Assembly: GCA_030149525.1 (NCBI GenBank)
Contig: JASBRJ010000206.1
Coordinates: 20,460-84,459, forward strand
DNA length: 64,000 nt
Source of the DNA: a bacterium
GTDB taxonomy: Bacteria > Vulcanimicrobiota > Xenobia > Xenobiales > JADMJV01
Direction: 5' to 3'
Shown: positions 42,826-53,200 of the stretch, piece by piece
Numbering within the stretch: position 1 is the first letter of the stretch
How the letters are laid out: each line of letters opens with the position of its first letter
Translations under genes and position numbers: made by a program
The notes under the pieces: generated by a model
What the model was told of the DNA's origin: nothing
The model's input: only the letters and a program-made list of their open reading frames with translations
Database searches by the model: none

Positions 42826-43668
42826 CTACCTATCGAATCGCCAAAGTTGCCGATTGGGTCGAAAGCCGCACAGTTGGGTGGCCACGTAAAACGATCTTTC
42901 GTTGGAAGCTGAGATCTCACCCACATAAAACTCGTAGCCTTTTTTCAGCAGGAGATTCTCGGCCGTGAGGACGAGAAATTGGGCAACCCCCTGACCCCAG
43001 TGGCTTTTTTGAACTCCGATATCCACCACCCAGGCCGTCCTTCGTTCGTCAAGCCTTAGAAGCAAGTAGCCTACGCGCTGCCGGCCACTGTCTTCAGCCA
43101 CGTAAAGCCGATACTCGGAACCCTCTGAATAGTCGAGCTTCAACAGAGACTGGGTCAGGATCCGGCTATAGGCGGAGAGTTCAGATTGTCGATGAGGGGG
43201 GAGAGTATGGGAGGCCACGGTGACGGCCAGCGCTGTGAGGAACGAGCGGTCGGATTCTTTGCCGCAGCGGAGTGTGAACGGATAATCAATGGATTGAGAA
43301 GACATGGGTTTACTCACGAAGCTTCTCAGGGGATAGAACCCGTGGCCTAGAAGAGTTTCACACCAGTCTCCCTCGGAGAAGAAAGCGGACGCCACCAGCG
43401 GCAACTCAGAAAGTTCACGCTTGGACTGCTCTAACAGAGCATCGACTTTACCCTCTGAGGCCCATAAGAGGGCGAGCGGCCTTTGAGTGTCGCGCTCAAG
43501 AGCGGTGGCGTCCCAGGCCAGAAAGCTGTCTTGTTCCTGAAAGAGTCTCGGTGCTTGACCCGATTCTAGATAGGCCAGTCTTTGGCTGCGACTATGCTCG
43601 AGATCCTCGGGGCGAAGACACTCTGGGAAGCTCGACTGGGATTCTACCCAAGCTTTGAGGTCAATCAA
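42826..43668 (-). CDS. GNAT-family N-acetyltransferase (C-terminal domain) with N-terminal extension
   Basis: The C-terminal 120 aa show the GNAT motif A pattern (VVDIGVQKSHWGQGVAQFLV). Confidence 0.55.
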   Translation of the reverse strand: MIDLKAWVESQSSFPECLRPEDLEHSRSQRLAYLESGQAPRLFQEQDSFLAWDATALERDTQRPLALLWASEGKVDALLEQSKRELSELPLVASAFFSEGDWCETLLGHGFYPLRSFVSKPMSSQSIDYPFTLRCGKESDRSFLTALAVTVASHTLPPHRQSELSAYSRILTQSLLKLDYSEGSEYRLYVAEDSGRQRVGYLLLRLDERRTAWVVDIGVQKSHWGQGVAQFLVLTAENLLLKKGYEFYVGEISASNERSFYVATQLCGFRPNRQLWRFDR

Positions 43669-44920
43669 CTTTCAACCCGCATTCGAAGAAGTGGGCGTAT
43701 AAAAACGGAAACCCGATGAGATCGGTGGTCGGATTGATGGGGCTCCCCAGATGACGGAAAGCTGCCAGATGTTGCACACGATACATGTTGTTGTAGACGT
43801 AGCGGCTGAAGTGGTTCTGCTGCTGTAGTATGTGGAGTCCAAGTTCATCGAGATCGGACCAGAATTTTTCCGGAGACTCCAGCAAACCCGGAAAAGTGGA
43901 AAGGAAGAGGCGGCTTTCGTCGTTCTTCTTGAGTGATGTTTTGGCGCATTCCAGAAAGAACCGCATCCCGTCGTCGGCGTAGGGTGGGTCGGTGGTCACG
44001 GCATCGTATTTGTCCTTCATCGAGTCGGGGACACCGTGGCGTAGATTATGCTCCAGAATCGTGAAGCGATTGTTTGACCTCTCCTTGAGGAAAGCTACTA
44101 GATCGGCGTCTAACTCGAGAATATCGACCTGAAGTGTGTCGGTCATCTCCACCAGAGCCAGGCCCACCAGGTCGTCGTCTCCCAAGACGAGAACTCTAGA
44201 GCCCGGCTTCAGGGCGTCTATGATTCGGCGGGCCCGAAGCTGAGTGGTTCTGGGAATGCAAAACTGTTGCTCGTATCGGAGCTTGAGAGCCGGTCGATCA
44301 AAAAAGAGTTTGACCAGATGGACATCGAGGTCTTCACTCTGGTCTTCCAGGTCGTGCTCTAGAAACGCCCGGCAGTGATCGAAGATGAAGTCGACCAGCC
44401 GAACCGGTTTGGTCATGAGTGGTCCCACATGCTCTGCCGGCCCCTGATAGGGCTGAGGCATAGAGTGCTCGCGGTAGAGTTTCTCCGTGCGTGCCAATCG
44501 ATTGAGCAGTTCCTCTCGGTCGGCGGCCGCCTCCAAGACCTCTCCGGTATGACTGGAAATATACTCCCGCATACTGAGGTCCATACGATGGACAAAGTCC
44601 GGCCAATCCTCCTCACCGGTGAGAACCAATCTGGCTCGATGAGCCCTTTCCAACCATTTGTCGCTAAGATCGGCATCGCCGTTCTGCAACGCCTGGAGCT
44701 TGTCCCAGGAATCTTCCTGAGCCAAAATGCGAGTGCCGAAGGCGAGGTTGATGAGAAGAACTTCCTGGGTTGTATTGCCGAACCGGGCGTCGAGATGGGG
44801 GCTGAGTCGGGGGACTTTGCTCATCTTGTTCGATTGCTTCTGGTCCTCCCAAGTCCCTTCCGCAGGTATCAGAATGGGAGACAAGAAGCCTGTTCTATGC
44901 TGCCACGCCAAGAGTCTCAT
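43661..44920 (-). CDS. DUF43-like putative aminopropyltransferase (branched-chain polyamine synthase BpsA-like)
   Basis: VLVLGDDDLVGLAL and TTDPPY motifs, as in DUF43 / bis-aminopropyl-spermidine synthases. The start is uncertain (TTG at 45022, ATG at 44920 or 44824). Confidence 0.5.
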   Translation of the reverse strand: MRLLAWQHRTGFLSPILIPAEGTWEDQKQSNKMSKVPRLSPHLDARFGNTTQEVLLINLAFGTRILAQEDSWDKLQALQNGDADLSDKWLERAHRARLVLTGEEDWPDFVHRMDLSMREYISSHTGEVLEAAADREELLNRLARTEKLYREHSMPQPYQGPAEHVGPLMTKPVRLVDFIFDHCRAFLEHDLEDQSEDLDVHLVKLFFDRPALKLRYEQQFCIPRTTQLRARRIIDALKPGSRVLVLGDDDLVGLALVEMTDTLQVDILELDADLVAFLKERSNNRFTILEHNLRHGVPDSMKDKYDAVTTDPPYADDGMRFFLECAKTSLKKNDESRLFLSTFPGLLESPEKFWSDLDELGLHILQQQNHFSRYVYNNMYRVQHLAAFRHLGSPINPTTDLIGFPFLYAHFFECGLKVD

Positions 44921-45007
44921 CACCCTCTCGACAAAGTCCGCTTCGGCCTCATGGTGGCCATAGGCGGAGAAGACCCGAAAGAGACCCTCGAAGTGATTGC
45001 TCAACAG

Positions 45008-46543
45008 ATGTCTACCGTGCAAAACGAACTGGCGGAGATTCCTAAAAGGGCACTGGAGCTAGGGCCTGACTTCGAGGCGAGTGCGGGGGATAAACTTCGC
45101 CGCTTGCTTGCCGTTTTTCAACGTTACTCCACCTGGTTGGACCGGACCAGAACGGCTCTCACCGGTGGTGATACAGCTTCGATGATGGAGTTGCACGAAG
45201 AGAGCCAAGATCTTCTCCCCACCATCACGGAGGCTCTGGACGCTTACAATAGAGCGTTTGCAAATTTCGGTCCGTTCCAAAGCGCGGTCACCAACTCTCT
45301 CCGGCGTGTGGCCGAGGGTATTGAAGCGGGCAGAGTCGTGCCCGCTACCTGGAGCCAGTATGCGGAGTTTTATCAGTCTGAGTTGAAATCCAAGTTGGAG
45401 AGTCTGATGCAGCTTGACCTTCCAGGCCGAACTCCCCTTCTGGAGGGTTATGCCGAAGCCCTGAAATTGGTATCGCAGATGGCCGCTGAGCCCCCTGCAG
45501 CCGCAGACAGCGTCAACAAGGCTCTCGACTTGCTGGATGCTTCTCTGGCTCCGGCCGAGATTTTGGAATCCGTCCTGGCCGAATCTCAAAAGGAGAAAGC
45601 TGCGAAGATACCGGCCACGGCAGCACTTCTCCATGTGGTGAAGAATGCTCGCGAGCTTTTGGGAGAAGAGCTCGTGCTGGCCGTTCTCGACGACTATAAC
45701 GAGACGGTCGAAGGCTACCTTGAGACCTTTGAAAGAGCTGTGGCCCGACCCACTCATTCCGATCTCATACGAGAGGAAATACCGCGCACGCTCGACACCA
45801 TCGACAGTCACTTTATGCTCATTGAGGAACTCAACGATGCTCTGGAGGCGGGAGAGACGACACTGGAAGAGCTTCTTCAGAAGATTCAACAGAGCGCGGA
45901 CCGTTTGGTGGAGTCCCGGGAGGTCTACGAGGTGGCGGCCCTTCACCATTCCTACAAAGCCTGTCCCTCTTGTTCAAGATCGAATCCGCCCGAGAACCTT
46001 TCTTGCGAGGCGTGTGGGGAACTGCTACCACGCGTGGATCGAACGGCGAGAACTCCCTCGTCCACTTTCAGTTTGATGTCGGGTCCGATTTCTGAGGAAA
46101 CGCAGCAAGCGGAGATGACGGAGAATGTGGCGCGACTTTTTCAGGCCTGCGACGACGTCCACGACAAAAAGATCGGGCGCGAGCAGTTCAAAGAGGAACT
46201 GAAGCGGGCGGCTGATTCCCTCGCCGATTTCGTAGAGGAATACGAGAATCAAGTGAATTTGGCTTTGGATGAGTCACTCTTTAGCCCCGAAGAATGGCAG
46301 AGTTGGAAAAGCCATCACCTGCCGCACCTGGAAGACCTGGCTATTAGCTATCATAGCGGGATCGAGGATCTTCGAAGCGGGTTGGTGAGTATGGAAGCCT
46401 ATCTCAAAGAGCCGGAGCGCGATCATCTGGTGGAGGGAGTCCGGCTTTACTGGCAAGGCATCCAGGCTATCCATCGCGGAAAACTCGCCATACAGACTCA
46501 CGCCAAGCTTCTAGACGACTTATTCAAAGAGTCCCAGAATTAG
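45008..46543 (+). CDS. Hypothetical alpha-helical protein with an internal zinc ribbon
   Basis: 511-aa helical, acidic product with CPSCSRSNPPENLSCEACG (CxxC-x11-CxxC). The start was taken at MSTVQNELAEI to avoid overlapping the divergent DUF43 gene. Confidence 0.5.
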   Translation: MSTVQNELAEIPKRALELGPDFEASAGDKLRRLLAVFQRYSTWLDRTRTALTGGDTASMMELHEESQDLLPTITEALDAYNRAFANFGPFQSAVTNSLRRVAEGIEAGRVVPATWSQYAEFYQSELKSKLESLMQLDLPGRTPLLEGYAEALKLVSQMAAEPPAAADSVNKALDLLDASLAPAEILESVLAESQKEKAAKIPATAALLHVVKNARELLGEELVLAVLDDYNETVEGYLETFERAVARPTHSDLIREEIPRTLDTIDSHFMLIEELNDALEAGETTLEELLQKIQQSADRLVESREVYEVAALHHSYKACPSCSRSNPPENLSCEACGELLPRVDRTARTPSSTFSLMSGPISEETQQAEMTENVARLFQACDDVHDKKIGREQFKEELKRAADSLADFVEEYENQVNLALDESLFSPEEWQSWKSHHLPHLEDLAISYHSGIEDLRSGLVSMEAYLKEPERDHLVEGVRLYWQGIQAIHRGKLAIQTHAKLLDDLFKESQN

Positions 46544-47775
46544 ATCCCCATGTTGGCAAAGGCTGCCACTCGTCCGTCCGGATCGATCTGGTGGAGTTTC
46601 CTGGCCTCGGCCATGGCTAGCCCCTCTTTACCCTGGCGCTTGTAGAGCCGAATCAAGGCGGTTCGTATCTTCAATCCGTAAATCGTATCTTCCGAGAGTC
46701 GCGCAGCTTTTCTCAGAGCTTTGATCGTCTTTTGCACGTCCCCATTGATCTCTCGGGCCTGGGCTTCCGTCCAACAAGGAGCGTAGGCCTTGCGGTCAAG
46801 CTTCTGAGCGGTCAGAGAGTGTTTTAAGGAATCCTCCGGGCGACCCAGTGAAAGCAGCAACTCAGCGCAGAGATTGTGCAAATACAGTTGGCCGTCCTGG
46901 GAGAGTCCTGGGAGGGAGAGTATCTCCTCCCACACCACCAGCGCTTCTTCATACCTCTTGAGGGCGTGAAGACTTGTTCCCTTGAGATAAAGTTCTTCCA
47001 CCCCGGGGTTTGCCAGGTCGTCAAGCTCCAATAGAGCGTCTTCGTATTGCCGGCAACGAACCCTGGCAGCCAATTTATCGAGAGGGCGCTCAAAATACTC
47101 CTCGGCTTCACTACGTATCACATCGTTTTCAAGCCACGGTTTGGCCAGTCGACGTTGCGCGTCGGGAGTAAAGCCGCCTTTCACCGAATAGGCCACCGTG
47201 GTAAGAAGGCTTGGAACGGAGCGGATGGCCCGGGCGAACATGTCAGACTCTTGCCAAACCGTTCCGTCGTCGTTAAGGAAGTAGTCCACATCAATGTCCA
47301 GTAGGACCGGCTCCTCGGGCAACTCAAGAGCCTCTAAAGGCCCCATCTCAAAAGGGATCCCCAAAAGCGTTCCATGGACGCGTCGACCCTCATAGCTGAG
47401 AGAGCGAAACTCCTGGGGTGACAGTTCGAACCATTCGTTGAGGTGATGTTTGGCCCAGGTGAGAAGGCCCGCTTCAGGGAGATCCGGAGGCAAGACCCAG
47501 GTGAGTTTTCCCACGATCCCTTCCTTTATGGCCGGATAAATGTAGTTTCCGCAATGCAGGCCCCCCCAGGGAAGATAACTGTTTCCCAAAGCACCCTGCT
47601 CAAGAACCTCTTGCGGCGTGCGGCAGTTCTTAATCAGGCGCAGACGCTCTTCGCTGAGTCCGGTACGACCTATGTCCAGGTGAGCATCCACATGCCAACA
47701 CCAGGCGTTCTGGACCCGGTGTGATTTCCAAGCGAAGTAGGCGTGGTAGTGCTCTTCCATCAGAATAACACTCAT
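46540..47775 (-). CDS. UPF0489-family domain fused to C-terminal TPR repeats
   Basis: N-terminus MEEHYHAYFAWK ... WHVDAHLD ... LLDIDVDYF (UPF0489 EDHHE / DSHPD / DIDLDFF pattern); TPR-like helices in the last ~150 aa. Confidence 0.55.
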   Translation of the reverse strand: MSVILMEEHYHAYFAWKSHRVQNAWCWHVDAHLDIGRTGLSEERLRLIKNCRTPQEVLEQGALGNSYLPWGGLHCGNYIYPAIKEGIVGKLTWVLPPDLPEAGLLTWAKHHLNEWFELSPQEFRSLSYEGRRVHGTLLGIPFEMGPLEALELPEEPVLLDIDVDYFLNDDGTVWQESDMFARAIRSVPSLLTTVAYSVKGGFTPDAQRRLAKPWLENDVIRSEAEEYFERPLDKLAARVRCRQYEDALLELDDLANPGVEELYLKGTSLHALKRYEEALVVWEEILSLPGLSQDGQLYLHNLCAELLLSLGRPEDSLKHSLTAQKLDRKAYAPCWTEAQAREINGDVQKTIKALRKAARLSEDTIYGLKIRTALIRLYKRQGKEGLAMAEARKLHQIDPDGRVAAFANMGI

Positions 47776-48374
47776 GCGTCCTCACCTCGTTTTCTCTTCC
47801 GCCGTCTGGCATGAATTCTAGCCAGTCTCCGGGCCACGGCTTTTCTCTGTTCACGCTCTTTCTCGGCCTCTTCCATGATTTGGCGAGCTTGCGGTGTACA
47901 GGCGCGAAAAAAACTGTAGCTTTCCAGCACGCAGTCGTATCGGCCGGCGGTGTTGATGAGGCGATTATCGGCTCGACATTCTCCCGACATGAAATGCACT
48001 CCCAGATCTCCTGTGAGAGTGGCGGCAGCCTCAAAGAGAAGGATACCGATGTTGTGTCCGGCGTAGCCGGGTACCACGGCAAAATCTTCTACACAGGTTT
48101 GGCGACGACCCAACTGATCGAGGTCGAACAGATTCAGCATGAGATAGCCCACCCGGAGGTTGTTTTTCTCACGATCTACGGCCACCAGAAATCGAAAGCT
48201 TCCTTCCTGAGCGAAACGCACCAACTCGGGGAACTCTTTTTCGATGAAGTCGGCGCATTCGCTGGGAGAGGAACGCGGTCCGCCTAACGTATGAATCGAC
48301 GCCTCAACCGCCAGTTCACGAATCCAATTCGTGTCCTCCGGTCCGGCGTCGATAACCTCAAATCTCTGACCCAT
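47772..48374 (-). CDS. GNAT-family acetyltransferase with a basic tail
   Basis: GNAT core (VGYLML ... VVPGYAGHNIGILL) and C-terminal RRLARIHARRRKRKRGEDA. Its start overlaps the upstream gene stop by 4 nt. Confidence 0.5.
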   Translation of the reverse strand: MGQRFEVIDAGPEDTNWIRELAVEASIHTLGGPRSSPSECADFIEKEFPELVRFAQEGSFRFLVAVDREKNNLRVGYLMLNLFDLDQLGRRQTCVEDFAVVPGYAGHNIGILLFEAAATLTGDLGVHFMSGECRADNRLINTAGRYDCVLESYSFFRACTPQARQIMEEAEKEREQRKAVARRLARIHARRRKRKRGEDA

Positions 48375-48407
48375 AGAGGGAGATGTTGAAGAGGCGGGGA
48401 TTTTTTC

Positions 48408-49103
48408 CTATACGAATACTCCGGCTTGAGCATAAAGACTTGCGCCCGCAATCATCCCACCGGCAGGGCTGGCTCCCGGGCCGAGCCCGATGCCCGCGCC
48501 AAAAGAGAGTCCCAGTCCGGCCTGGGCTCCGCCAAAGAGAGCCTGAGGTCCCAGACCCGCACCGGCTGCACGGATACCCGGGCTTCCAGCAGCCAGATTG
48601 ATACCCGCAGGCATCCCCCCAAGTCGAGGAACACCGAGTTGGGGGGCTCCTCCGATATTGATGTTGAGGCCGTTTCCTCGTCCGGCAGCGATCTGCGGTC
48701 CGCCCCCCACATTGATGTTCAAGCCACCGGGCGCACCTGCAGGTCCGCCGGCCCCTAAGTTGATGTTGACCCCGGGGCCGCCCATGCCGGGGGCTCCCAT
48801 TCCCGGCCCGCCCATCATAGCGGCGTTCATTCCTTGCTGACAGCAACCGCCCATGGGACATCCACATTTCTTGCCCATCATGGCCTGTTGGCTCATCTGA
48901 ACCATCTGATTCATCATACCCATCATGGTTCGCATCTGTTGCTGCTGCTGTTGAGCCTGCATCAACTGCTCTCGTTGCTGACGATTCATACGGGGAGCAC
49001 GAGGGCTCTTGGCACCTTCCGAGGCTCCCGCCGAACTGGCGATGCTACCTACTGTTCCAGCAATACTGCCGGCTGCGCTTGCGATTCCACCTAAAGCTCC
49101 CAT
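48408..49103 (-). CDS. Low-complexity Met/Gln/Cys/Gly-rich protein with GxNINxGG repeats
   Basis: Perfect Shine-Dalgarno GAGGAG 5 nt upstream of the ATG. N-terminal glycine zipper, polyQ, a Met-rich tract (MMGMMNQMVQMSQQAMMG), a Cys cluster KKCGCPMGGCCQQGM, then repeated GVNINLGAGG / GLNINVGGG / GLNINIGGA motifs. Confidence 0.55.
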   Translation of the reverse strand: MGALGGIASAAGSIAGTVGSIASSAGASEGAKSPRAPRMNRQQREQLMQAQQQQQQMRTMMGMMNQMVQMSQQAMMGKKCGCPMGGCCQQGMNAAMMGGPGMGAPGMGGPGVNINLGAGGPAGAPGGLNINVGGGPQIAAGRGNGLNINIGGAPQLGVPRLGGMPAGINLAAGSPGIRAAGAGLGPQALFGGAQAGLGLSFGAGIGLGPGASPAGGMIAGASLYAQAGVFV

Positions 49104-49164
49104 ATGAATTCTCCTCGTTAGTCTTGTGTTGATGAGAGTTTCTCACGAAGGGCAGACCTGAAGT

Positions 49165-49638
49165 ATGAAAACTGAACCAGCACATGTGAACCCGATAAGA
49201 ACTCCGTGTAACCAAGTTGTTAACGAGCGGTCAGGGGTTGAGAAGGAGCTTTCGGGCCGGCTTATGGAATCGGAACAGTCTATGACACTCCCCAGTGCTC
49301 AACATCAAGAGAAGTTTCAAGAAAAATCGGACCCGGCGATCTGTTGCCGGGCCTGCGGGCAACTTGTGACCAGACGAAACTGCAACGGTCCCGACACGGT
49401 GGACTCGGAACGCACCTTCCGCAATCCCGCCGGATACTCATTTCATGTGAAGGTTTTTGGTGAAGCCGAAGGATGCCGAGTGGTCGGAGAGGCTGTCAGT
49501 GAAGCGTCCTGGTTTCCCGATTATGCCTGGAGGTTGGCCCTTTGTCGGGAGTGTGACACCCATCTTGGTTGGAGGTTCGAGAAATCCGGCCACTCTGACT
49601 TCTGGGGCTTGATAGTGACCAGATTGACCGGTGTTTAA
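49165..49638 (+). CDS. Bacterial CULT-domain (cereblon-like) protein
   Basis: CRACGQ ... FRNPAGYSFHV ... WFPDYAWRLALCRECDTHLGWRFE ... FWGLI matches the CULT zinc-ribbon / tri-Trp pocket pattern. The true start may lie at an internal Met (49264 or 49285). Confidence 0.65.
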   Translation: MKTEPAHVNPIRTPCNQVVNERSGVEKELSGRLMESEQSMTLPSAQHQEKFQEKSDPAICCRACGQLVTRRNCNGPDTVDSERTFRNPAGYSFHVKVFGEAEGCRVVGEAVSEASWFPDYAWRLALCRECDTHLGWRFEKSGHSDFWGLIVTRLTGV

Positions 49639-50609
49639 TTCTTACCGAGTAGCACCCGTCGATTCTCTGAAAGAATGGTGCGACACATCTCGGGGTCGGG
49701 CTCGGAGTCTTCCACTCCCTCCTCAAACGTTCCACCCAAAACCAGCATGTCGGGCCGGGAGATGACATAGCCTGCACTGTGATCGATGATGAAGCTCTCT
49801 GATGCCGGTTCCAACAAGACAAGCTGGCCTCTTATCGGCCTCACTGCATGATCTTCAACAACACGACCGGCGCCCAGGCCCAGGCAATTGATAAAGAGGG
49901 TCTCGGGCAGTTCAAGGATTTGGTTCAAGTGGTGGAACTCGTATTCTCGAAAAGCACCGCCCCGTTCTTCAATGTCGCTTGCCAGTTGATGCAAAAATCT
50001 CGGGGTCTGGATGAGAAGGGTCTCGCTATATAGACATTCCCCGACGTATCCACTGATGGGCAATCGGGCCATGGTAGAGGGCTCCGGGGTAATCCCATCA
50101 GGGAAAGGATCGAGGGGGTGAGAACGATCGGGAGTTTCATACAGGGGAACTTTGGAGATGCCGTATCTCTTGGAGTCCAGGCTGAGGTAGGTGTTCCAGG
50201 TCTCACGCAACATGCGATCCCTCAGTTCGTCGTCTTCGAGGCCGAGATGGGTGGGTGCCCAAAGACCGCCGGCCACGTTCGAAGTGGTGTTGGGGGGAAA
50301 CTCCTTGCTGTAAACAGTTACAGGATGCCCTCGTTGAGAGAGGAGATGGGCCGAACAAAGTCCCATCACTCCGGAGCCTAGAACGCCCACAGGGAGTCCG
50401 GGGCTGAGGTGGTTTCCCAGAAGGTTCAGAACTTCCAGGCAAGAGCCCCAGCAAAGAGTGATCCCGCTGCCGCCGTGCCCATAGTTGTGAGCCACGATCT
50501 TTTGACCGAGATGCTCAACGGCCAGCCGGGGGCCACCCGCGCGATAAGGACGAAGGCCGGCAACCACCCCTCGGACACGCCCGTCATCAAGTTGGAGTTC
50601 AATCTCCAT
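49635..50609 (-). CDS. D-amino-acid-oxidase-like FAD flavoenzyme, apparently circularly permuted
   Basis: Residues ~35-60 (VAHNYGHGGSGITLCWGSCLEVLNLLG) match the normally C-terminal DAAO FAD-binding motif. Residues ~70-110 (VGVLGSGVMGLCSAHLL ... VYSKEFPPNTTSNVAGGLWAP) match the normally N-terminal GxGxxG Rossmann motif and the AAGLW segment. The ORF then ends where the C-terminal motif would normally follow. The start overlaps the upstream gene stop (TAATG). Confidence 0.65.
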   Translation of the reverse strand: MEIELQLDDGRVRGVVAGLRPYRAGGPRLAVEHLGQKIVAHNYGHGGSGITLCWGSCLEVLNLLGNHLSPGLPVGVLGSGVMGLCSAHLLSQRGHPVTVYSKEFPPNTTSNVAGGLWAPTHLGLEDDELRDRMLRETWNTYLSLDSKRYGISKVPLYETPDRSHPLDPFPDGITPEPSTMARLPISGYVGECLYSETLLIQTPRFLHQLASDIEERGGAFREYEFHHLNQILELPETLFINCLGLGAGRVVEDHAVRPIRGQLVLLEPASESFIIDHSAGYVISRPDMLVLGGTFEEGVEDSEPDPEMCRTILSENRRVLLGKN

Positions 50610-51691
50610 TAGGACTTCCAGCGAACCGACTTCAACCAGGGTAGACCGAGAGCACCCTTACCAAGCTCCAGCTCAAGATTCGTATTCTGGGCCCGACTGT
50701 TGAAGACGCTTCTAGACACTGCGATCTCCTCGGGAAGTTCAACAGCGTCGTCTTCACCGGCGGCGAGTCGCGCATGGTAGGTGTAGTAGCGACCGTTCTT
50801 GGTCTTGTGTTCCTTACTGTACATGCTGCGCACGGTTGCTTCCACCCTTATGCTCGGGCCCGTATCGAGTCCGATATTGATATCTTCAAGCAGCAGAATT
50901 CCCGCCACCGGGAGACTTAAAATCAGCAGCACGGCGCTTTCGATGATGATGCGATGGCCCCGAGACGACCCACTGAAGAGAGTCCGAATTACGCTGATAA
51001 GTGCTGCAAAAAGTCCCAGCCCCAGACCCAGTCCTAGCCAGACCTGTTGGCCCCAGTGAAGCAGGAGAGTTTCTCTTGTGGTCACCAGTTCCATAAACCC
51101 CATGAAGGCGTATCCGCTCACGGCGAAGAGGACGGCCTCGGTGATAAAAGCCTTGTAAAAGAAAGGTTCTTTATACATGGGCGTGGGCTCGTTTTTCATC
51201 CCTTTCATGCTTTCAGAGAGCTCAATCAGCCTCTTGAAATCGAGATCGGAGACGTCATCGCTACCCTTGGCAGTTATCCAAAGACGTTCGCCGTCACACT
51301 GAATCTCGTGGAAATCCTTGGAAAGAACTTGATGAACCTTATCTCTGGTCTGCTGGGAAAGAGAAAGATGATCGGCCAGCAACGGGTTGTCGGAAACAAC
51401 GTAGACGAGATCGTCGAATTTTCTGTCGCCTGTTTGGAGTTCGGTGGAAAGACCCCAGTCCTTAAAGCGTGTGTCCCAGGTCGATTCTCGAACAAATCGG
51501 AATTTGGGACCCGGATGATCGACTCCCACGCTTCGACCCGTGATTCGTCCTTTGTGCTTGCTGAGCGAAACATAACATGTCTTATCCCTGTAGTCTTTTT
51601 GAGACGCTCCACGGAACTTCTTCGCATTCAAACCGATGAGGAGACCGATGCCTGCTCCCAGCATTTTCAGGAAAAACCAAATAAGCCACAT
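50609..51691 (-). CDS. Multi-pass membrane protein of unknown function
   Basis: N-terminal TM helix, a ~150-aa soluble region, three more TM helices including a LGLGLGLGL tract, and a C-terminal soluble region. Confidence 0.5.
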   Translation of the reverse strand: MWLIWFFLKMLGAGIGLLIGLNAKKFRGASQKDYRDKTCYVSLSKHKGRITGRSVGVDHPGPKFRFVRESTWDTRFKDWGLSTELQTGDRKFDDLVYVVSDNPLLADHLSLSQQTRDKVHQVLSKDFHEIQCDGERLWITAKGSDDVSDLDFKRLIELSESMKGMKNEPTPMYKEPFFYKAFITEAVLFAVSGYAFMGFMELVTTRETLLLHWGQQVWLGLGLGLGLFAALISVIRTLFSGSSRGHRIIIESAVLLILSLPVAGILLLEDINIGLDTGPSIRVEATVRSMYSKEHKTKNGRYYTYHARLAAGEDDAVELPEEIAVSRSVFNSRAQNTNLELELGKGALGLPWLKSVRWKS

Positions 51692-51764
51692 AAAAGGAAG
51701 GTTCTTTTTCTTTTAGCGCAAGTCCTCTCGATGGGTTTTTCTCTATAGAGAAAGTCTCCGCAAG

Positions 51765-52403
51765 TCAGAGTTTTTTCAGCCGACGAATGGTCTCGGTGGC
51801 TGCCACTTGCCCTTTCAGGTTCCCCTCCACAGGTCGAGACTCCAGAGTCTGAATGGCGTAACGCCCGCCGTAGTGCTTCTCGATCTCTTGCCGACTGATA
51901 GAAAAAGGCGGCCCGTCCATGAGACTTTGGTCGTATTGGAAAGTGATGAGAAGCTGTGGGGCGGTGCCGGAAATTTCTACCAAATGGGCTGCATATTCAT
52001 GCCGTGTGCTCTCGGGGAGGGCCACCATGGCCGCTCTGTCGTAAACCGCTTGAACCCGGCCGAGCGTGTCGGAGTGGAGATGGAAGATGTTGCCCACGAA
52101 GAAATCCAGCCCCGGTGCGGCGTAATGCTTCATCCGTCCTCGGCTGGTGACCTCGGGCTCCACTTCGAGTTCCTGGAACAGTTCTTTGATGGCCGACTCA
52201 TTCAGTTCCGCTCCTGCCACGGCGCACCCTTGAGATCTCAGCCAGGCGATGTCTCTGGTCTTTCCGCAAAGAGGGAGAAAGACTCTGGCTCCGTCTGCCA
52301 GGTTGAGTGCGGAGAAATGCTCCACGAGCAGTGAGTTGGGTCGGCCCTCATGAAAGCCGATCTCTCGATTCTCCCATTTTTTATGCCAAAATTCAGGTTC
52401 CAT
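51765..52403 (-). CDS. tpm: Thiopurine S-methyltransferase
   Basis: FWHKKWENREIGFHEGRPNSLLVEHF ... RVFLPLCGKTRDIAWL, the canonical TPMT N-terminal signature. Confidence 0.85.
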   Translation of the reverse strand: MEPEFWHKKWENREIGFHEGRPNSLLVEHFSALNLADGARVFLPLCGKTRDIAWLRSQGCAVAGAELNESAIKELFQELEVEPEVTSRGRMKHYAAPGLDFFVGNIFHLHSDTLGRVQAVYDRAAMVALPESTRHEYAAHLVEISGTAPQLLITFQYDQSLMDGPPFSISRQEIEKHYGGRYAIQTLESRPVEGNLKGQVAATETIRRLKKL

Positions 52404-53200
52404 TAATCCTTACCCGCAGCGGCCTTTTCTGGTTGAGCTTTGCCGGCCAGGGGAGTCTCCTCAAAAGGTGTCCACCCGGTCTCAGGAAGCAGAATTTCCA
52501 ACCCGGTGAACTGTTCCTTGTAGCGAAGCTTCTTCGCCAGCGTGTTCATAAAGCCGATATAGAGGTGTGGCCAGTCACGCTGGGCACACATCTCAATCTC
52601 TTTGAGAAACGTGAAGACTCCAAGTCGGCGTCGAGGTACGGTGAGGTCGTAATAACAGTAGTGAGAGTAGATACCTCGTTCGCCGATGTCGATAGTGCTC
52701 ACAGCCAACAGACGGTCGCCTTGCCAGTAGGAGACCTCTTTGGTGTGACCCATCTGGTTGAGGTGCCAGGAATCATAAAATGCCAGTCTTTCACGGTCCG
52801 TTGTGAGGTGGTCGGTTTTGGTTTGGAACTGGGTCTTCACGAAGGTCTCAAAAAGCTCGAATTTTTTTGCGGTCATCTCCACCGGACCTATTCTCTGGAT
52901 CAGGTCTTTGTTGCGATTTCGAGTTCGTCTCATGGAACGGGTCCAACGGAACGATTTCAAAGCGATGCGGGCGGGATGACAGTATCGACATCCGTAGCAA
53001 GCGGGGAGGCAGTAGAGAGGGCCGAACCGGCCGCCACCAAGATGCATGAGTCGGTCGATGCTCTCATCGTGGAGAGCAAGCAGTGACCACTCCCGTCCGG
53101 GCAAGAAGTTACACGGATGATTGGGAAGCCGACAGGAGAGGGGAGGGTTATCGCGCCATCCGGGCTCGACGGCGTCCCATAGACCAAGAAGGTGACGCAC
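52403..53200 (-). CDS. bpt: Arginyl/leucyl-tRNA--protein transferase (Bpt/Ate1 family)
   Basis: RFGPLYCLPACYGCRYCHPARI Cys cluster, followed by an ATE_C-like GNAT-fold half (FYDSWHLNQMG). Confidence 0.65.
   Translation of the reverse strand: MRHLLGLWDAVEPGWRDNPPLSCRLPNHPCNFLPGREWSLLALHDESIDRLMHLGGGRFGPLYCLPACYGCRYCHPARIALKSFRWTRSMRRTRNRNKDLIQRIGPVEMTAKKFELFETFVKTQFQTKTDHLTTDRERLAFYDSWHLNQMGHTKEVSYWQGDRLLAVSTIDIGERGIYSHYCYYDLTVPRRRLGVFTFLKEIEMCAQRDWPHLYIGFMNTLAKKLRYKEQFTGLEILLPETGWTPFEETPLAGKAQPEKAAAGKD

What the first reader, a model, noticed from the sequence alone, without database searches (positions are those of the whole stretch)
49165..49638. Bacterial cereblon-like CULT domain protein
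The product carries the full CULT signature: CxxC ... FxNPxG ... WFP-Y-W ... CxxC-x2-LGWxF, closely paralleling the Magnetospirillum cereblon isoform (MsCI4). CULT is a ligand-binding domain, which in the eukaryotic CRBN substrate receptor binds thalidomide. Bacterial copies are uncommon and their physiological ligands are unknown. The gene converges on the permuted DAAO-like oxidase and is flanked on the other side by the Met/Cys/Gln-rich protein.
Basis: partly seen in the sequence, partly recalled or inferred. Interest (0 to 1): 0.5.

Follow-up and report, generated by a model that had tools for sequence, protein, structure and literature searches.

The report
Stand-alone bacterial cereblon-like CULT protein
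This gene from a marine Phycisphaerales (Planctomycetota) bacterium encodes a small zinc-stabilised protein with the same ligand-binding cage as the thalidomide-binding domain of human cereblon; it is a clear new member of a known family whose bacterial role is still unknown.

Summary
The observation and the interpretation both hold. The ORF at 49165-49638 (+) is real and encodes a single-domain CULT (cereblon-like) protein. Sequence and profile searches of the PDB return only cereblon: MsCI4 at 7e-22 (single sequence) and 3e-34 (profile), and CRBN at about 1e-18 to 1e-20. MsrB (0.011), Yippee-like 5 (0.061) and Mss4 (0.35) are at noise level. An AlphaFold model (pLDDT 84) matches MsCI4 and CRBN structures at TM 0.81-0.89. 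Both CxxC zinc pairs, the N-P-x-G hairpin, all three cage Trp and the fourth aromatic (Phe, as in human CRBN) are present.

Two corrections. First, the start is over-called. A sister strain has an in-frame TAA upstream of M40 and homologs are 117-123 aa, so the gene is 49282-49638 (118 aa). In seven relatives CULT converges directly on an ATE/Bpt-family aminoacyl-tRNA-protein transferase gene (N-degron pathway). That pairing is confined to one closely related clade and is absent from 86 loci in other phyla.

The likely mechanism is binding of a cyclic imide, lactam or uracil-type ligand. The physiological ligand is unresolved. This is a new member of a known kind and of modest interest.

The parts
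49282..49638 (+). CULT (cereblon-like) gene with corrected start: 118 aa, MTLPSAQHQ...VTRLTGV, stop TAA at 49636-49638
   Evidence: A sister strain has an in-frame TAA upstream of this ATG. Homologs are 117-123 aa. PDB hits are to cereblon only. AF2 pLDDT is 84 and Foldseek TM to MsCI4 is 0.81-0.89. dN/dS is 0.14.
49165..49281 (+). Over-called N-terminal extension (39 codons), most likely 5' leader or intergenic DNA rather than coding
   Evidence: This frame is interrupted by TAA in L071-L073. It has no counterpart in any close homolog.
49345..49356 (+). First zinc motif, C22-R-A-C25 (118-aa numbering); equals MsCI4 C24/C27 and human C323/C326
   Evidence: Invariant in 25/25 subfamily members and 148/148 family representatives. 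Alignment to MsCI4 and hCRBN.
49414..49449 (+). Inserted beta-hairpin ('sensor loop') T45-F-R-N48-P49-A-G51-Y-S-F-H-V56; N48 equals MsCI4 N50 and human N351
   Evidence: N, P and G are invariant. The whole 12-mer is nearly invariant within this subfamily but variable in the wider family.
49510..49530 (+). Cage strand W77-F-P-D-Y81-A-W83; W77 and W83 equal MsCI4 W79 and W85 and human W380 and W386; Y81 equals human Y384
   Evidence: W77 is present in 148/148 and W83 in 147/148 family representatives.
49543..49578 (+). Second zinc motif plus third cage Trp: C88-R-E-C91-D-T-H-L-G-W97-R-F99; equals MsCI4 C90/C93/W99/Y101 and human C391/C394/W400/F402
   Evidence: Position 99 is Phe in 86 and Tyr in 62 family representatives.
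49504..49506 (+). Ala75 at the pocket-entrance position (human H378, MsCI4 F77), an unusually small residue
   Evidence: Among 148 family representatives this column is F 73, H 27, W 22, Y 13, D 8. It is A, D or H in most members of this subfamily.
49635..50609 (-). Context only: circularly permuted DAAO/DDO-like FAD oxidase, convergent with CULT and sharing TTAA at the stops. It is the first gene of a three-gene insertion (DAO, a 360-aa membrane protein, TPMT; 49635-52403).
   Evidence: Pfam DAO 2.5e-31. Permutation shown. Absent next to CULT in seven relatives.
52403..53200 (-). Context: ATE_N+ATE_C aminoacyl-tRNA-protein transferase (Ate1/Bpt family). It is the ancestral convergent neighbour of CULT in this clade.
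   Evidence: Pfam ATE_C 6.5e-22 and ATE_N 4e-7. It lies directly adjacent to or overlapping CULT in L059, L060, L061, L064, L067, L074 and L076.
48408..49103 (-). Context only: divergent Met/Gln/Gly-rich low-complexity 231-aa ORF, the last gene of a ~6.3 kb upstream insertion (42826-49103)
   Evidence: It has no homolog beside CULT in the relatives, where SecA, a 139-aa gene or a GST-like gene lies upstream instead.

Best explanation
The gene encodes a 118-aa cytoplasmic, single-domain CULT protein with a beta-tent fold. The fold is held together by one structural zinc ion bound by C22, C25, C88 and C91. Three tryptophans (W77, W83, W97) and F99 form an aromatic cage beside the N48 hairpin. 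By homology with MsCI4 and human CRBN, this cage should accept a five- or six-membered cyclic imide, lactam or uracil-type ring. Candidates are glutarimide or succinimide, including C-terminal cyclic imides formed from Asn or Gln on damaged proteins, and uridine. The ring would hydrogen-bond to the backbone around residues 75-77 and stack between the indoles. The protein has no catalytic residues and no effector domain, so it most likely acts as a reader or adaptor and not as an enzyme.

Shown here: family membership, fold, conservation of every zinc and cage residue, purifying selection, the corrected start, and the gene context. Inferred: zinc binding, ligand class and reader role. My preferred but weakly supported physiological reading is recognition of a terminal cyclic-imide or lactam mark on proteins or peptides, because the extended hairpin surface is nearly invariant and, in this clade, the gene sits against an N-degron transferase gene.
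For: Family: phmmer gives MsCI4 7e-22 and human CRBN about 1e-13. The profile gives MsCI4 3e-34 and CRBN about 1e-18 to 1e-20, with the next families at E >= 0.007.

Fold: AF2 pLDDT 84 and pTM 0.73, all-beta. The 50 best Foldseek PDB matches listed are all cereblon, with TMt 0.81-0.89 for stand-alone cereblon domains and rmsd about 2 A.

Residues: a mapping with only one 1-residue gap near the C-terminal end places all four Cys, N48, W77, W83, W97 and F99 on the MsCI4 and hCRBN zinc and cage residues. These positions are invariant in 25 subfamily members and in 147-148 of 148 family representatives.

Selection: dN/dS is 0.14.

Ligand chemistry of the family, from the literature: MsCI4 binds thalidomide and uridine at low micromolar affinity in the same cage (PMC4449219). 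C-terminal cyclic imides bind cereblon (cited in PMC13001092). Lactams and other chemotypes also occupy the pocket (bioRxiv 10.64898/2026.08.28.747849).

Reader rather than small-metabolite pocket: the 12-residue hairpin TFRNPAGYSFHV is nearly invariant in the subfamily. In seven relatives the gene abuts or overlaps an ATE/Bpt-family transferase gene.

Location: the polar N-terminus (MTLPSAQHQEKFQEKSD) has no signal peptide or membrane segment. This is read directly from the sequence.
Against: No binding, zinc or partner data exist for this protein, and no bacterial CULT protein has a known physiological role; the literature searches found none.

The ATE linkage is convergent rather than operonic. 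It is confined to one clade whose flanking genes are 67-88% identical, so it may be plain inherited synteny. It is absent from 86 CULT loci in other lineages. It is also broken in this very window by a three-gene insertion.

Position 75 is Ala, where most family members have F, H, W or Y. The pocket entrance, and hence ligand preference, may therefore differ from MsCI4 and CRBN.

The AF2 coordinates could not be inspected, so cage geometry was not measured.
Confidence: 0.6

Rival explanations
1. It is a small-metabolite binder or sensor. The cage would bind a free, widespread metabolite such as uridine, uracil, dihydrouracil or another lactam. The protein would buffer, sense or hand over that metabolite, with no link to protein termini.
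For: MsCI4 binds uridine and deoxyuridine at low micromolar affinity (PMC4449219; PDB 4v31 is the top structural match). Lupas et al. argued for a widespread small ligand because the cage is so similar in bacteria and animals (PMC4287342). There is no conserved partner gene across phyla. In three relatives a GST-like gene overlaps the CULT start in operon fashion, which hints at small-molecule chemistry.
Against: No biological context for uridine recognition could be established even for MsCI4 (PMC4449219). The near-invariant hairpin surface outside the cage suggests a larger ligand or partner. The GST-like gene is missing from this window and from four of the seven relatives.
Confidence: 0.3
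2. CULT works together with its immediate neighbours in this window, the circularly permuted DAAO-like oxidase and/or the Met/Gln-rich protein. For example, it might bind a substrate or product of the oxidase.
For: Physical adjacency, with stop codons overlapping the DAO-like gene (TTAA) and a shared divergent intergenic region with the Met/Gln-rich gene. The same arrangement is found in sister strains.
Against: The orientation is convergent, so this is not an operon. Both neighbours belong to insertions found only in the window's immediate clade. Seven relatives with ATE 67-83% identical lack DAO, TM360, TPMT and the Met/Gln-rich gene next to CULT. None of these genes lies near CULT in the other 86 loci from other lineages.
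Confidence: 0.04
3. It is not CULT proper but another beta-tent family, such as a Yippee/Mis18-like protein, an MsrB-like methionine sulfoxide reductase or an Mss4-like protein.
For: The only Pfam hit is Yippee-Mis18, at E = 0.007-0.008 and 17 bits. These families share the fold and the two CxxC motifs (PMC4287342).
Against: The hit is below Pfam's cut-off and covers only 37 residues. MsCI4 itself behaves the same way in Pfam, at 21.8 bits. The profile search puts cereblon 16 or more orders of magnitude ahead of MsrB (0.011), YPEL5 (0.061) and Mss4 (0.35). The 50 best structural matches listed are all cereblon. The tri-Trp cage that defines CULT is complete.
Confidence: 0.01
4. The full 157-aa ORF is the real product, with a functional 39-residue N-terminal extension specific to this strain.
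For: The frame is open from ATG 49165 in this strain, and public gene callers produced a 157-aa product on 10 contigs.
Against: A sister strain has a TAA in this frame, with several further non-synonymous changes upstream. No homolog aligns to the extension. Gene callers gave 118 aa on 23 or more contigs and 124 aa on others.
Confidence: 0.07

Closest known systems
MsCI4 (MGR_0879), the single-domain CULT protein of Magnetospirillum gryphiswaldense (PDB 4V2Y and more than 60 others)
   Same: Stand-alone architecture of about 120 aa with a disordered N-terminal tail. About 43-45% identity over 97 residues with a single 1-residue gap. The same two CxxC zinc motifs, N-P-A-G hairpin and tri-Trp cage. 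The predicted fold superposes at TM 0.81-0.89.
   Different: The fourth cage residue is Phe (as in human F402), not Tyr101. The pocket-entrance residue is Ala, not Phe77. The hairpin is TFRNPAGYSFHV instead of VVFNPAGMIFRV. The host is a marine Phycisphaerales (Planctomycetota), not an alphaproteobacterium.
Thalidomide-binding (CULT) domain of human cereblon, CRBN residues 318-442
   Same: About 31% identity. The zinc cysteines (C323, C326, C391, C394), N351, Y384, W380, W386, W400 and F402 are all matched, and the WFPxYAW strand is nearly identical. Structural matches have TMq about 0.75-0.78.
   Different: There is no Lon-like N-terminal domain, no DDB1-binding region and no ubiquitin system in the host, so it cannot act as an E3 substrate receptor. 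H353 and H378 are both replaced by Ala, and the C-terminal tail is absent.
Yippee/Mis18, MsrB and Mss4 (other beta-tent fold families)
   Same: Beta-tent fold with two CxxC zinc knuckles, and weak sequence similarity around the second CxxC.
   Different: E-values are 0.011-0.35, against 1e-18 to 1e-34 for cereblon. These families do not have the tri-Trp cage (PMC4287342).

Membership tests
CULT domain family (cereblon-like; Lupas et al. 2015) | Significant sequence similarity to cereblon CULT domains, clearly above other beta-tent families | tested here: met
   phmmer gives MsCI4 7e-22 and CRBN about 1e-13. The profile gives 3e-34 and about 1e-18 to 1e-20, against MsrB 0.011, YPEL5 0.061 and Mss4 0.35.
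CULT domain family (cereblon-like; Lupas et al. 2015) | Two CxxC motifs forming the structural Zn(Cys)4 site | tested here: met
   C22, C25, C88 and C91 align to MsCI4 C24, C27, C90 and C93 and to hCRBN C323, C326, C391 and C394. They are invariant in all homologs. This is shown at sequence level only.
CULT domain family (cereblon-like; Lupas et al. 2015) | Three invariant tryptophans forming the aromatic cage, plus a fourth aromatic residue (F/Y) | tested here: met
   W77, W83, W97 and F99 match W79, W85, W99 and Y101 of MsCI4 and W380, W386, W400 and F402 of hCRBN. They are conserved in 147-148 of 148 representatives.
CULT domain family (cereblon-like; Lupas et al. 2015) | [quoted passage not shown] | tested here: met
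   N48-P49-A50-G51 is present. N is invariant, and P and G are near-invariant.
CULT domain family (cereblon-like; Lupas et al. 2015) | Beta-tent fold superposable on solved CULT structures | tested here: met
   AF2 model with pLDDT 84. Foldseek gives TMt 0.81-0.89 and rmsd 1.7-2.4 A to MsCI4, and the 50 best matches listed are all cereblon. This rests on a predicted structure, not an experimental one.
CULT domain family (cereblon-like; Lupas et al. 2015) | Actual binding of zinc and of glutarimide, uridine or cyclic-imide ligands in the cage | not testable with these tools
   This needs purified protein, for example a MANT-uracil FRET displacement assay, thermal shift, ITC or crystal soaking.
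CULT domain family (cereblon-like; Lupas et al. 2015) | Match to a curated CULT-specific profile (e.g. the PROSITE CULT profile) | not testable with these tools
   Pfam-A and NCBIfam hold no CULT-specific model. Pfam catches hCRBN with PF03226 (45 bits) but misses MsCI4 (21.8 bits) and this protein (17 bits).
Bacterial single-domain CULT group (Lupas group I) | The protein consists entirely of the CULT domain, with no Lon, DDB1-binding or signal sequence | tested here: met
   The protein is 118 aa. Residues 20-118 align to the domain, and the first ~19 residues are polar with low pLDDT. No other Pfam domain is found.
Cereblon proper (CRL4 substrate receptor) | N-terminal Lon-like domain and DDB1-binding helices preceding the CULT domain | tested here: not met
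   The corrected protein has only a 19-residue tail before the domain. The over-called 39-codon extension is non-coding in a sister strain. The gene is therefore not a cereblon orthologue in the functional sense.
Yippee/Mis18 (PF03226) | Score at or above the Pfam gathering threshold | tested here: not met
   17 bits against a cut-off of 26.6, covering 37 residues only. YPEL5 scores E = 0.061 in the profile search.
MsrB (methionine-R-sulfoxide reductase) | Significant similarity to MsrB | tested here: not met
   The best MsrB chain scores E = 0.011 over 17 residues around the second CxxC only. There is no MsrB hit in Pfam or NCBIfam.

The most novel reading that the evidence does not exclude
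In this Phycisphaerales clade the CULT protein may be a bacterial reader of terminal protein-damage marks, such as C-terminal aspartimide or glutarimide or a related lactam. It would work in the same proteolytic quality-control circuit as the neighbouring ATE/Bpt-family N-degron transferase. That would make it a prokaryotic, ubiquitin-independent forerunner of the cereblon cyclic-imide degron pathway. The evidence does not exclude this. CULT and ATE are convergent and overlap at their 3' ends in seven relatives. The hairpin surface next to the cage is nearly invariant. The protein also has no enzymatic or effector features of its own.
Probability: 0.1. Interest if true: 0.75.

Novelty: new member of a known kind. 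Interest (0 to 1): 0.3.

Why it matters
Cereblon's CULT domain is the entry point for thalidomide-type drugs and for most clinical protein degraders, yet the function of the bacterial single-domain CULT proteins is still unknown. This locus adds three things.

- It is a well-supported member from Planctomycetota (marine Phycisphaerales). Together with the Vulcanimicrobiota, Melainabacteria, Acidimicrobiia and Burkholderiales relatives found here, this widens the distribution well beyond the mostly deltaproteobacterial set described in 2015.
- It defines a subfamily with a human-like Phe in the cage, a small Ala/Asp residue at the pocket entrance, and an almost invariant TFRNPAGYSFHV hairpin. 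These are sequence features that could change ligand preference.
- It shows that across phyla there is no conserved partner gene. The only recurrent neighbours are clade-restricted: an ATE/Bpt-type N-degron transferase, and in some relatives a GST-like gene. These are hypotheses, not evidence of function.

In practical terms, the public 157-aa gene model should be shortened to 118 aa before anyone expresses the protein.

Tried and rejected
- NCBIfam scan: no hit for the CULT protein.
- Rfam scan of the whole window for taxonomic markers or leaders: nothing found.
- tblastn of eleven window genes (the CULT gene plus ten of its neighbours: DAO, TM360, TPMT, ATE, EcsC, Met/Gln-rich, GNAT, UPF0489/TPR, ORF722, BpsA_C) against 52 reference-genome CULT loci: only the CULT gene itself was found.
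- De novo clustering of flanking ORFs in those 52 loci: only local synteny within Obscuribacterales, for example a Ser/Thr-kinase-like gene in about 10 loci. No universal partner.
- HMMs built from the clade's ATE and GST-like proteins: no hits near 56 distant loci, no GST-like gene anywhere in the 64-kb window, and only the same clade (L076, L077) among 32 metagenome loci.
- Promoter and terminator scan of 48900-49900: only weak consensus matches, none positioned convincingly for the CULT gene. Sigma-70 patterns may not apply to Planctomycetes.
- Literature searches for a physiological role of bacterial cereblon or MsCI4: only structural and pharmacological uses of MsCI4 were found.
- A functional link to the DAO-like oxidase was considered and rejected on comparative grounds (see rival explanations).

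Full report
**Observation**

An ORF of 157 codons runs from 49165 to 49638 on the + strand. The identical protein is encoded on 11 independent marine metagenome contigs, including Tara Oceans assemblies, always with the same neighbours. Members of the 90%-identity cluster of the window's SecA carry the NCBI name 'Phycisphaerales bacterium'. The organism is therefore a marine member of the Planctomycetota. Rfam found no RNA genes in the window.

**Start codon**

The 157-aa model is too long, for three reasons.
- The nearest homologs are 117-123 aa and their N-termini align with M40 of the ORF.
- Within the same 90% cluster the protein was called at 118 aa on more than 23 contigs and at 124 aa on others.
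- In sister-strain contigs that are 97% identical at the DNA level, the extended frame reads ATG GAA TCG TAA immediately upstream of M40.

The conserved gene is 49282-49638 (118 aa). Between the window and the sister strain, dN/dS over these 118 codons is 0.14, with 15 synonymous and 8 non-synonymous differences, so the gene is under purifying selection.

**Family assignment**

- A single-sequence search of all PDB chains returns only cereblon at E < 0.04. The bacterial MsCI4 scores 7e-22 to 4e-19 over residues 59-155, with about 45% identity and one 1-residue gap. Vertebrate CRBN scores about 1e-13.
- A profile of 24 family members gives MsCI4 3e-34 and CRBN about 1e-18 to 1e-20. The next hits are a zinc finger (0.007), MsrB (0.011), Yippee-like 5 (0.061) and Mss4 (0.35).
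- An AlphaFold2 model built on that alignment has mean pLDDT 84 and pTM 0.73. It is all-beta, and only the first ~19 residues and the loop at 31-40 have low confidence.
- The 50 best Foldseek matches listed from the PDB are all MsCI4 or CRBN. For stand-alone cereblon domains TMt is 0.81-0.89, and rmsd is about 2 A at 39-44% identity to MsCI4.

The only Pfam hit is a sub-threshold Yippee-Mis18 match (17 bits, cut-off 26.6). This reflects the library and not the protein. Pfam has no CULT model. It captures human CRBN's domain with PF03226 at 45 bits, and scores MsCI4 itself at only 21.8 bits. NCBIfam has no matching model.

**Residue mapping**

MsCI4 residues were taken from the HMMER alignment. 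Correspondences are given as 118-aa numbering / MsCI4 / human:

| This protein | MsCI4 | Human CRBN |
|---|---|---|
| C22 | C24 | C323 |
| C25 | C27 | C326 |
| N48 | N50 | N351 |
| A50 | A52 | H353 |
| A75 | F77 | H378 |
| W77 | W79 | W380 |
| Y81 | Y83 | Y384 |
| W83 | W85 | W386 |
| C88 | C90 | C391 |
| C91 | C93 | C394 |
| W97 | W99 | W400 |
| F99 | Y101 | F402 |

The zinc site and the tri-Trp cage are complete.

The fourth cage residue is Phe as in human CRBN, not the Tyr described as an MsCI4-specific feature (bioRxiv 10.64898/2026.08.28.747849). Across 148 single-domain family representatives the four Cys, N48, W77 and W97 are invariant. W83 is present in 147 of 148, and position 99 is F in 86 and Y in 62.

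Two features set this subfamily apart.
- Position 75 is Ala (Ala or Asp in the close clade), whereas the family at large has F 73, H 27, W 22, Y 13.
- The hairpin TFRNPAGYSFHV is almost invariant within the subfamily but variable outside it.

**How common is the family?**

An exhaustive profile search of 1.84 billion cluster representatives finds 3,038 proteins at E <= 1e-3, 1,951 at E <= 1e-10 and 339 at E <= 1e-30. All but two of the 150 best hits listed are single-domain proteins of 120-240 aa. A motif-based scan of one genome per GTDB species found 52 loci, in Vulcanimicrobiota, Melainabacteria/Obscuribacterales, Burkholderiales, Acidimicrobiia/Actinomycetota and a deltaproteobacterium. 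The family is rare per genome but much more widely spread than the mainly deltaproteobacterial set described in 2015 (PMC4287342).

**Gene context**

Both observations are correct. The oxidase really is circularly permuted: residues 17-65 align to residues 284-335 of D-aspartate oxidase, and residues 73-315 align to residues 14-266.

Neither gene is a conserved partner.
- Ten genes neighbouring the CULT gene were searched by tblastn, and none occurs within 6 kb of CULT in the 52 reference-genome loci.
- De novo clustering of flanking ORFs finds no partner shared across lineages.

The closer relatives are more informative. On seven distinct contigs (CULT 52-66% identical) the order is SecA(-), sometimes a GST-like gene(+) overlapping the CULT start, CULT(+), then an ATE_N/ATE_C aminoacyl-tRNA-protein transferase gene(-). 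The transferase gene abuts CULT or overlaps its 3' end by up to 42 nt. EcsC(-) and a phytase-like gene(-) follow in the contigs long enough to show them, except L064, where a Tricorn/PD40-like gene follows ATE instead.

The window has the same backbone with two insertions.
- About 6.3 kb upstream (42826-49103), ending with the Met/Gln-rich gene.
- DAO, TM360 and TPMT (49635-52403), lying between CULT and ATE (52403-53200).

Sister strains share both insertions. The closest relative without them still has ATE 83% and EcsC 87% identical. The insertions are therefore recent.

**Is the CULT-ATE pairing functional?**

ATE/Bpt-family enzymes add Arg or Leu to N-terminal Asp or Glu in N-degron pathways (PMC9351520). 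Cereblon reads C-terminal cyclic imides as degrons in eukaryotes (cited in PMC13001092). The juxtaposition is therefore suggestive.

The evidence for a functional link is weak, however.
- The genes are convergent, not co-transcribed.
- All seven contexts come from one clade whose ATE and EcsC genes are 67-88% and 71-98% identical to the window's, so they are not independent observations.
- HMMs for ATE and the GST-like protein find nothing near 86 CULT loci from other lineages.
- The adjacency has been broken in the window itself.

I treat the pairing as a hypothesis with a probability of about 0.1. One further point: CULT diverges faster (52-66% identity) than its flanking genes, and the differences are concentrated in the N-terminal tail and the 31-42 loop.

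**Mechanism**

Shown here: a stand-alone CULT domain with an intact zinc site and aromatic cage, under purifying selection, with no signal peptide or other domain.

Inferred from the family's well-studied biochemistry: the cage should bind a cyclic imide, lactam or uracil ring. MsCI4 binds thalidomide and uridine at low micromolar affinity and folds its binding site around the ligand (PMC4449219). The protein most likely acts as a binding module and not as an enzyme.

Unresolved: whether the natural ligand is a free metabolite or a mark on a protein terminus. No paper in the searchable library reports a physiological function for any bacterial CULT protein.

**Verdict**

This is a new member of a known family. 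Its subfamily-specific pocket-entrance and hairpin features may be worth a biochemist's attention, but nothing here is categorically new. Interest is 0.3.

Noticed in passing
window 49635-50609 (-): The DAAO/DDO-like FAD oxidase is a genuine circular permutant. Residues 17-65, which include the HNYGHGG motif, align to the C-terminal residues 284-335 of D-aspartate oxidase 6rkf. Residues 73-315 align to residues 14-266.
   Followed up: partly
window 42826-49103 and 49635-52403: The CULT gene sits between two lineage-specific insertions. Upstream are GNAT, BpsA_C, a 651/722-aa ORF, a UPF0489/TPR protein with a weak peptide-arginase hit, a second GNAT, and the Met/Gln/Gly-rich ORF. Downstream are DAO, a 360-aa membrane protein and TPMT. 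Relatives have SecA, CULT and ATE contiguous, in most cases followed by EcsC, so this spot looks like a hotspot for gene gain.
   Followed up: partly
window 52403-53200 (-): The ATE/Bpt-family transferase is full length: 265 aa from GTG at 53200, with ATE_N plus ATE_C, matching the 264-274 aa relatives. Public gene calls on identical contigs truncate it to 157 aa (ATE_C only).
   Followed up: partly
L060 5273-6004, L061 1062-1811, L067 944-1675: In three relatives a GST-like gene (GST_N_3, Tom37, GST_C_6) lies immediately upstream of CULT with a 4-nt start/stop overlap, which is an operon-like arrangement. No homolog exists anywhere in this 64-kb window.
   Followed up: partly
window 48408-49103 (-): The 231-aa ORF is extreme low complexity: poly-Gln, Met-rich, Gly/Ala/Asn repeats such as GLNINVGG, and a short CGCPMGGCC patch. 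It has no family match. Its length varies between sister strains (186, 233 or 257 aa as called).
   Followed up: no
proteins P0072 (1737 aa) and P0073 (1022 aa): These are the first and third hits of the family profile search. They look like eukaryotic cereblon with a Lon-like N-terminus, but carry 22 and 4 CULT-like stretches respectively. They are either tandem CULT arrays or assembly or gene-model artefacts.
   Followed up: no
window 49330-49353 (- strand): A GC-rich hairpin followed by a T-run on the minus strand lies inside the CULT coding region (the DPAICCRACG codons), about 280 nt downstream of the DAO stop. It could terminate the convergent transcript, but the count of such sites is close to the shuffle expectation.
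   Followed up: no
L059-L076 compared with the window: On the same contigs the CULT protein diverges faster (52-66% identity) than the flanking ATE (67-88%) and EcsC (71-98%) proteins. Its zinc and cage residues stay invariant.
   Followed up: partly
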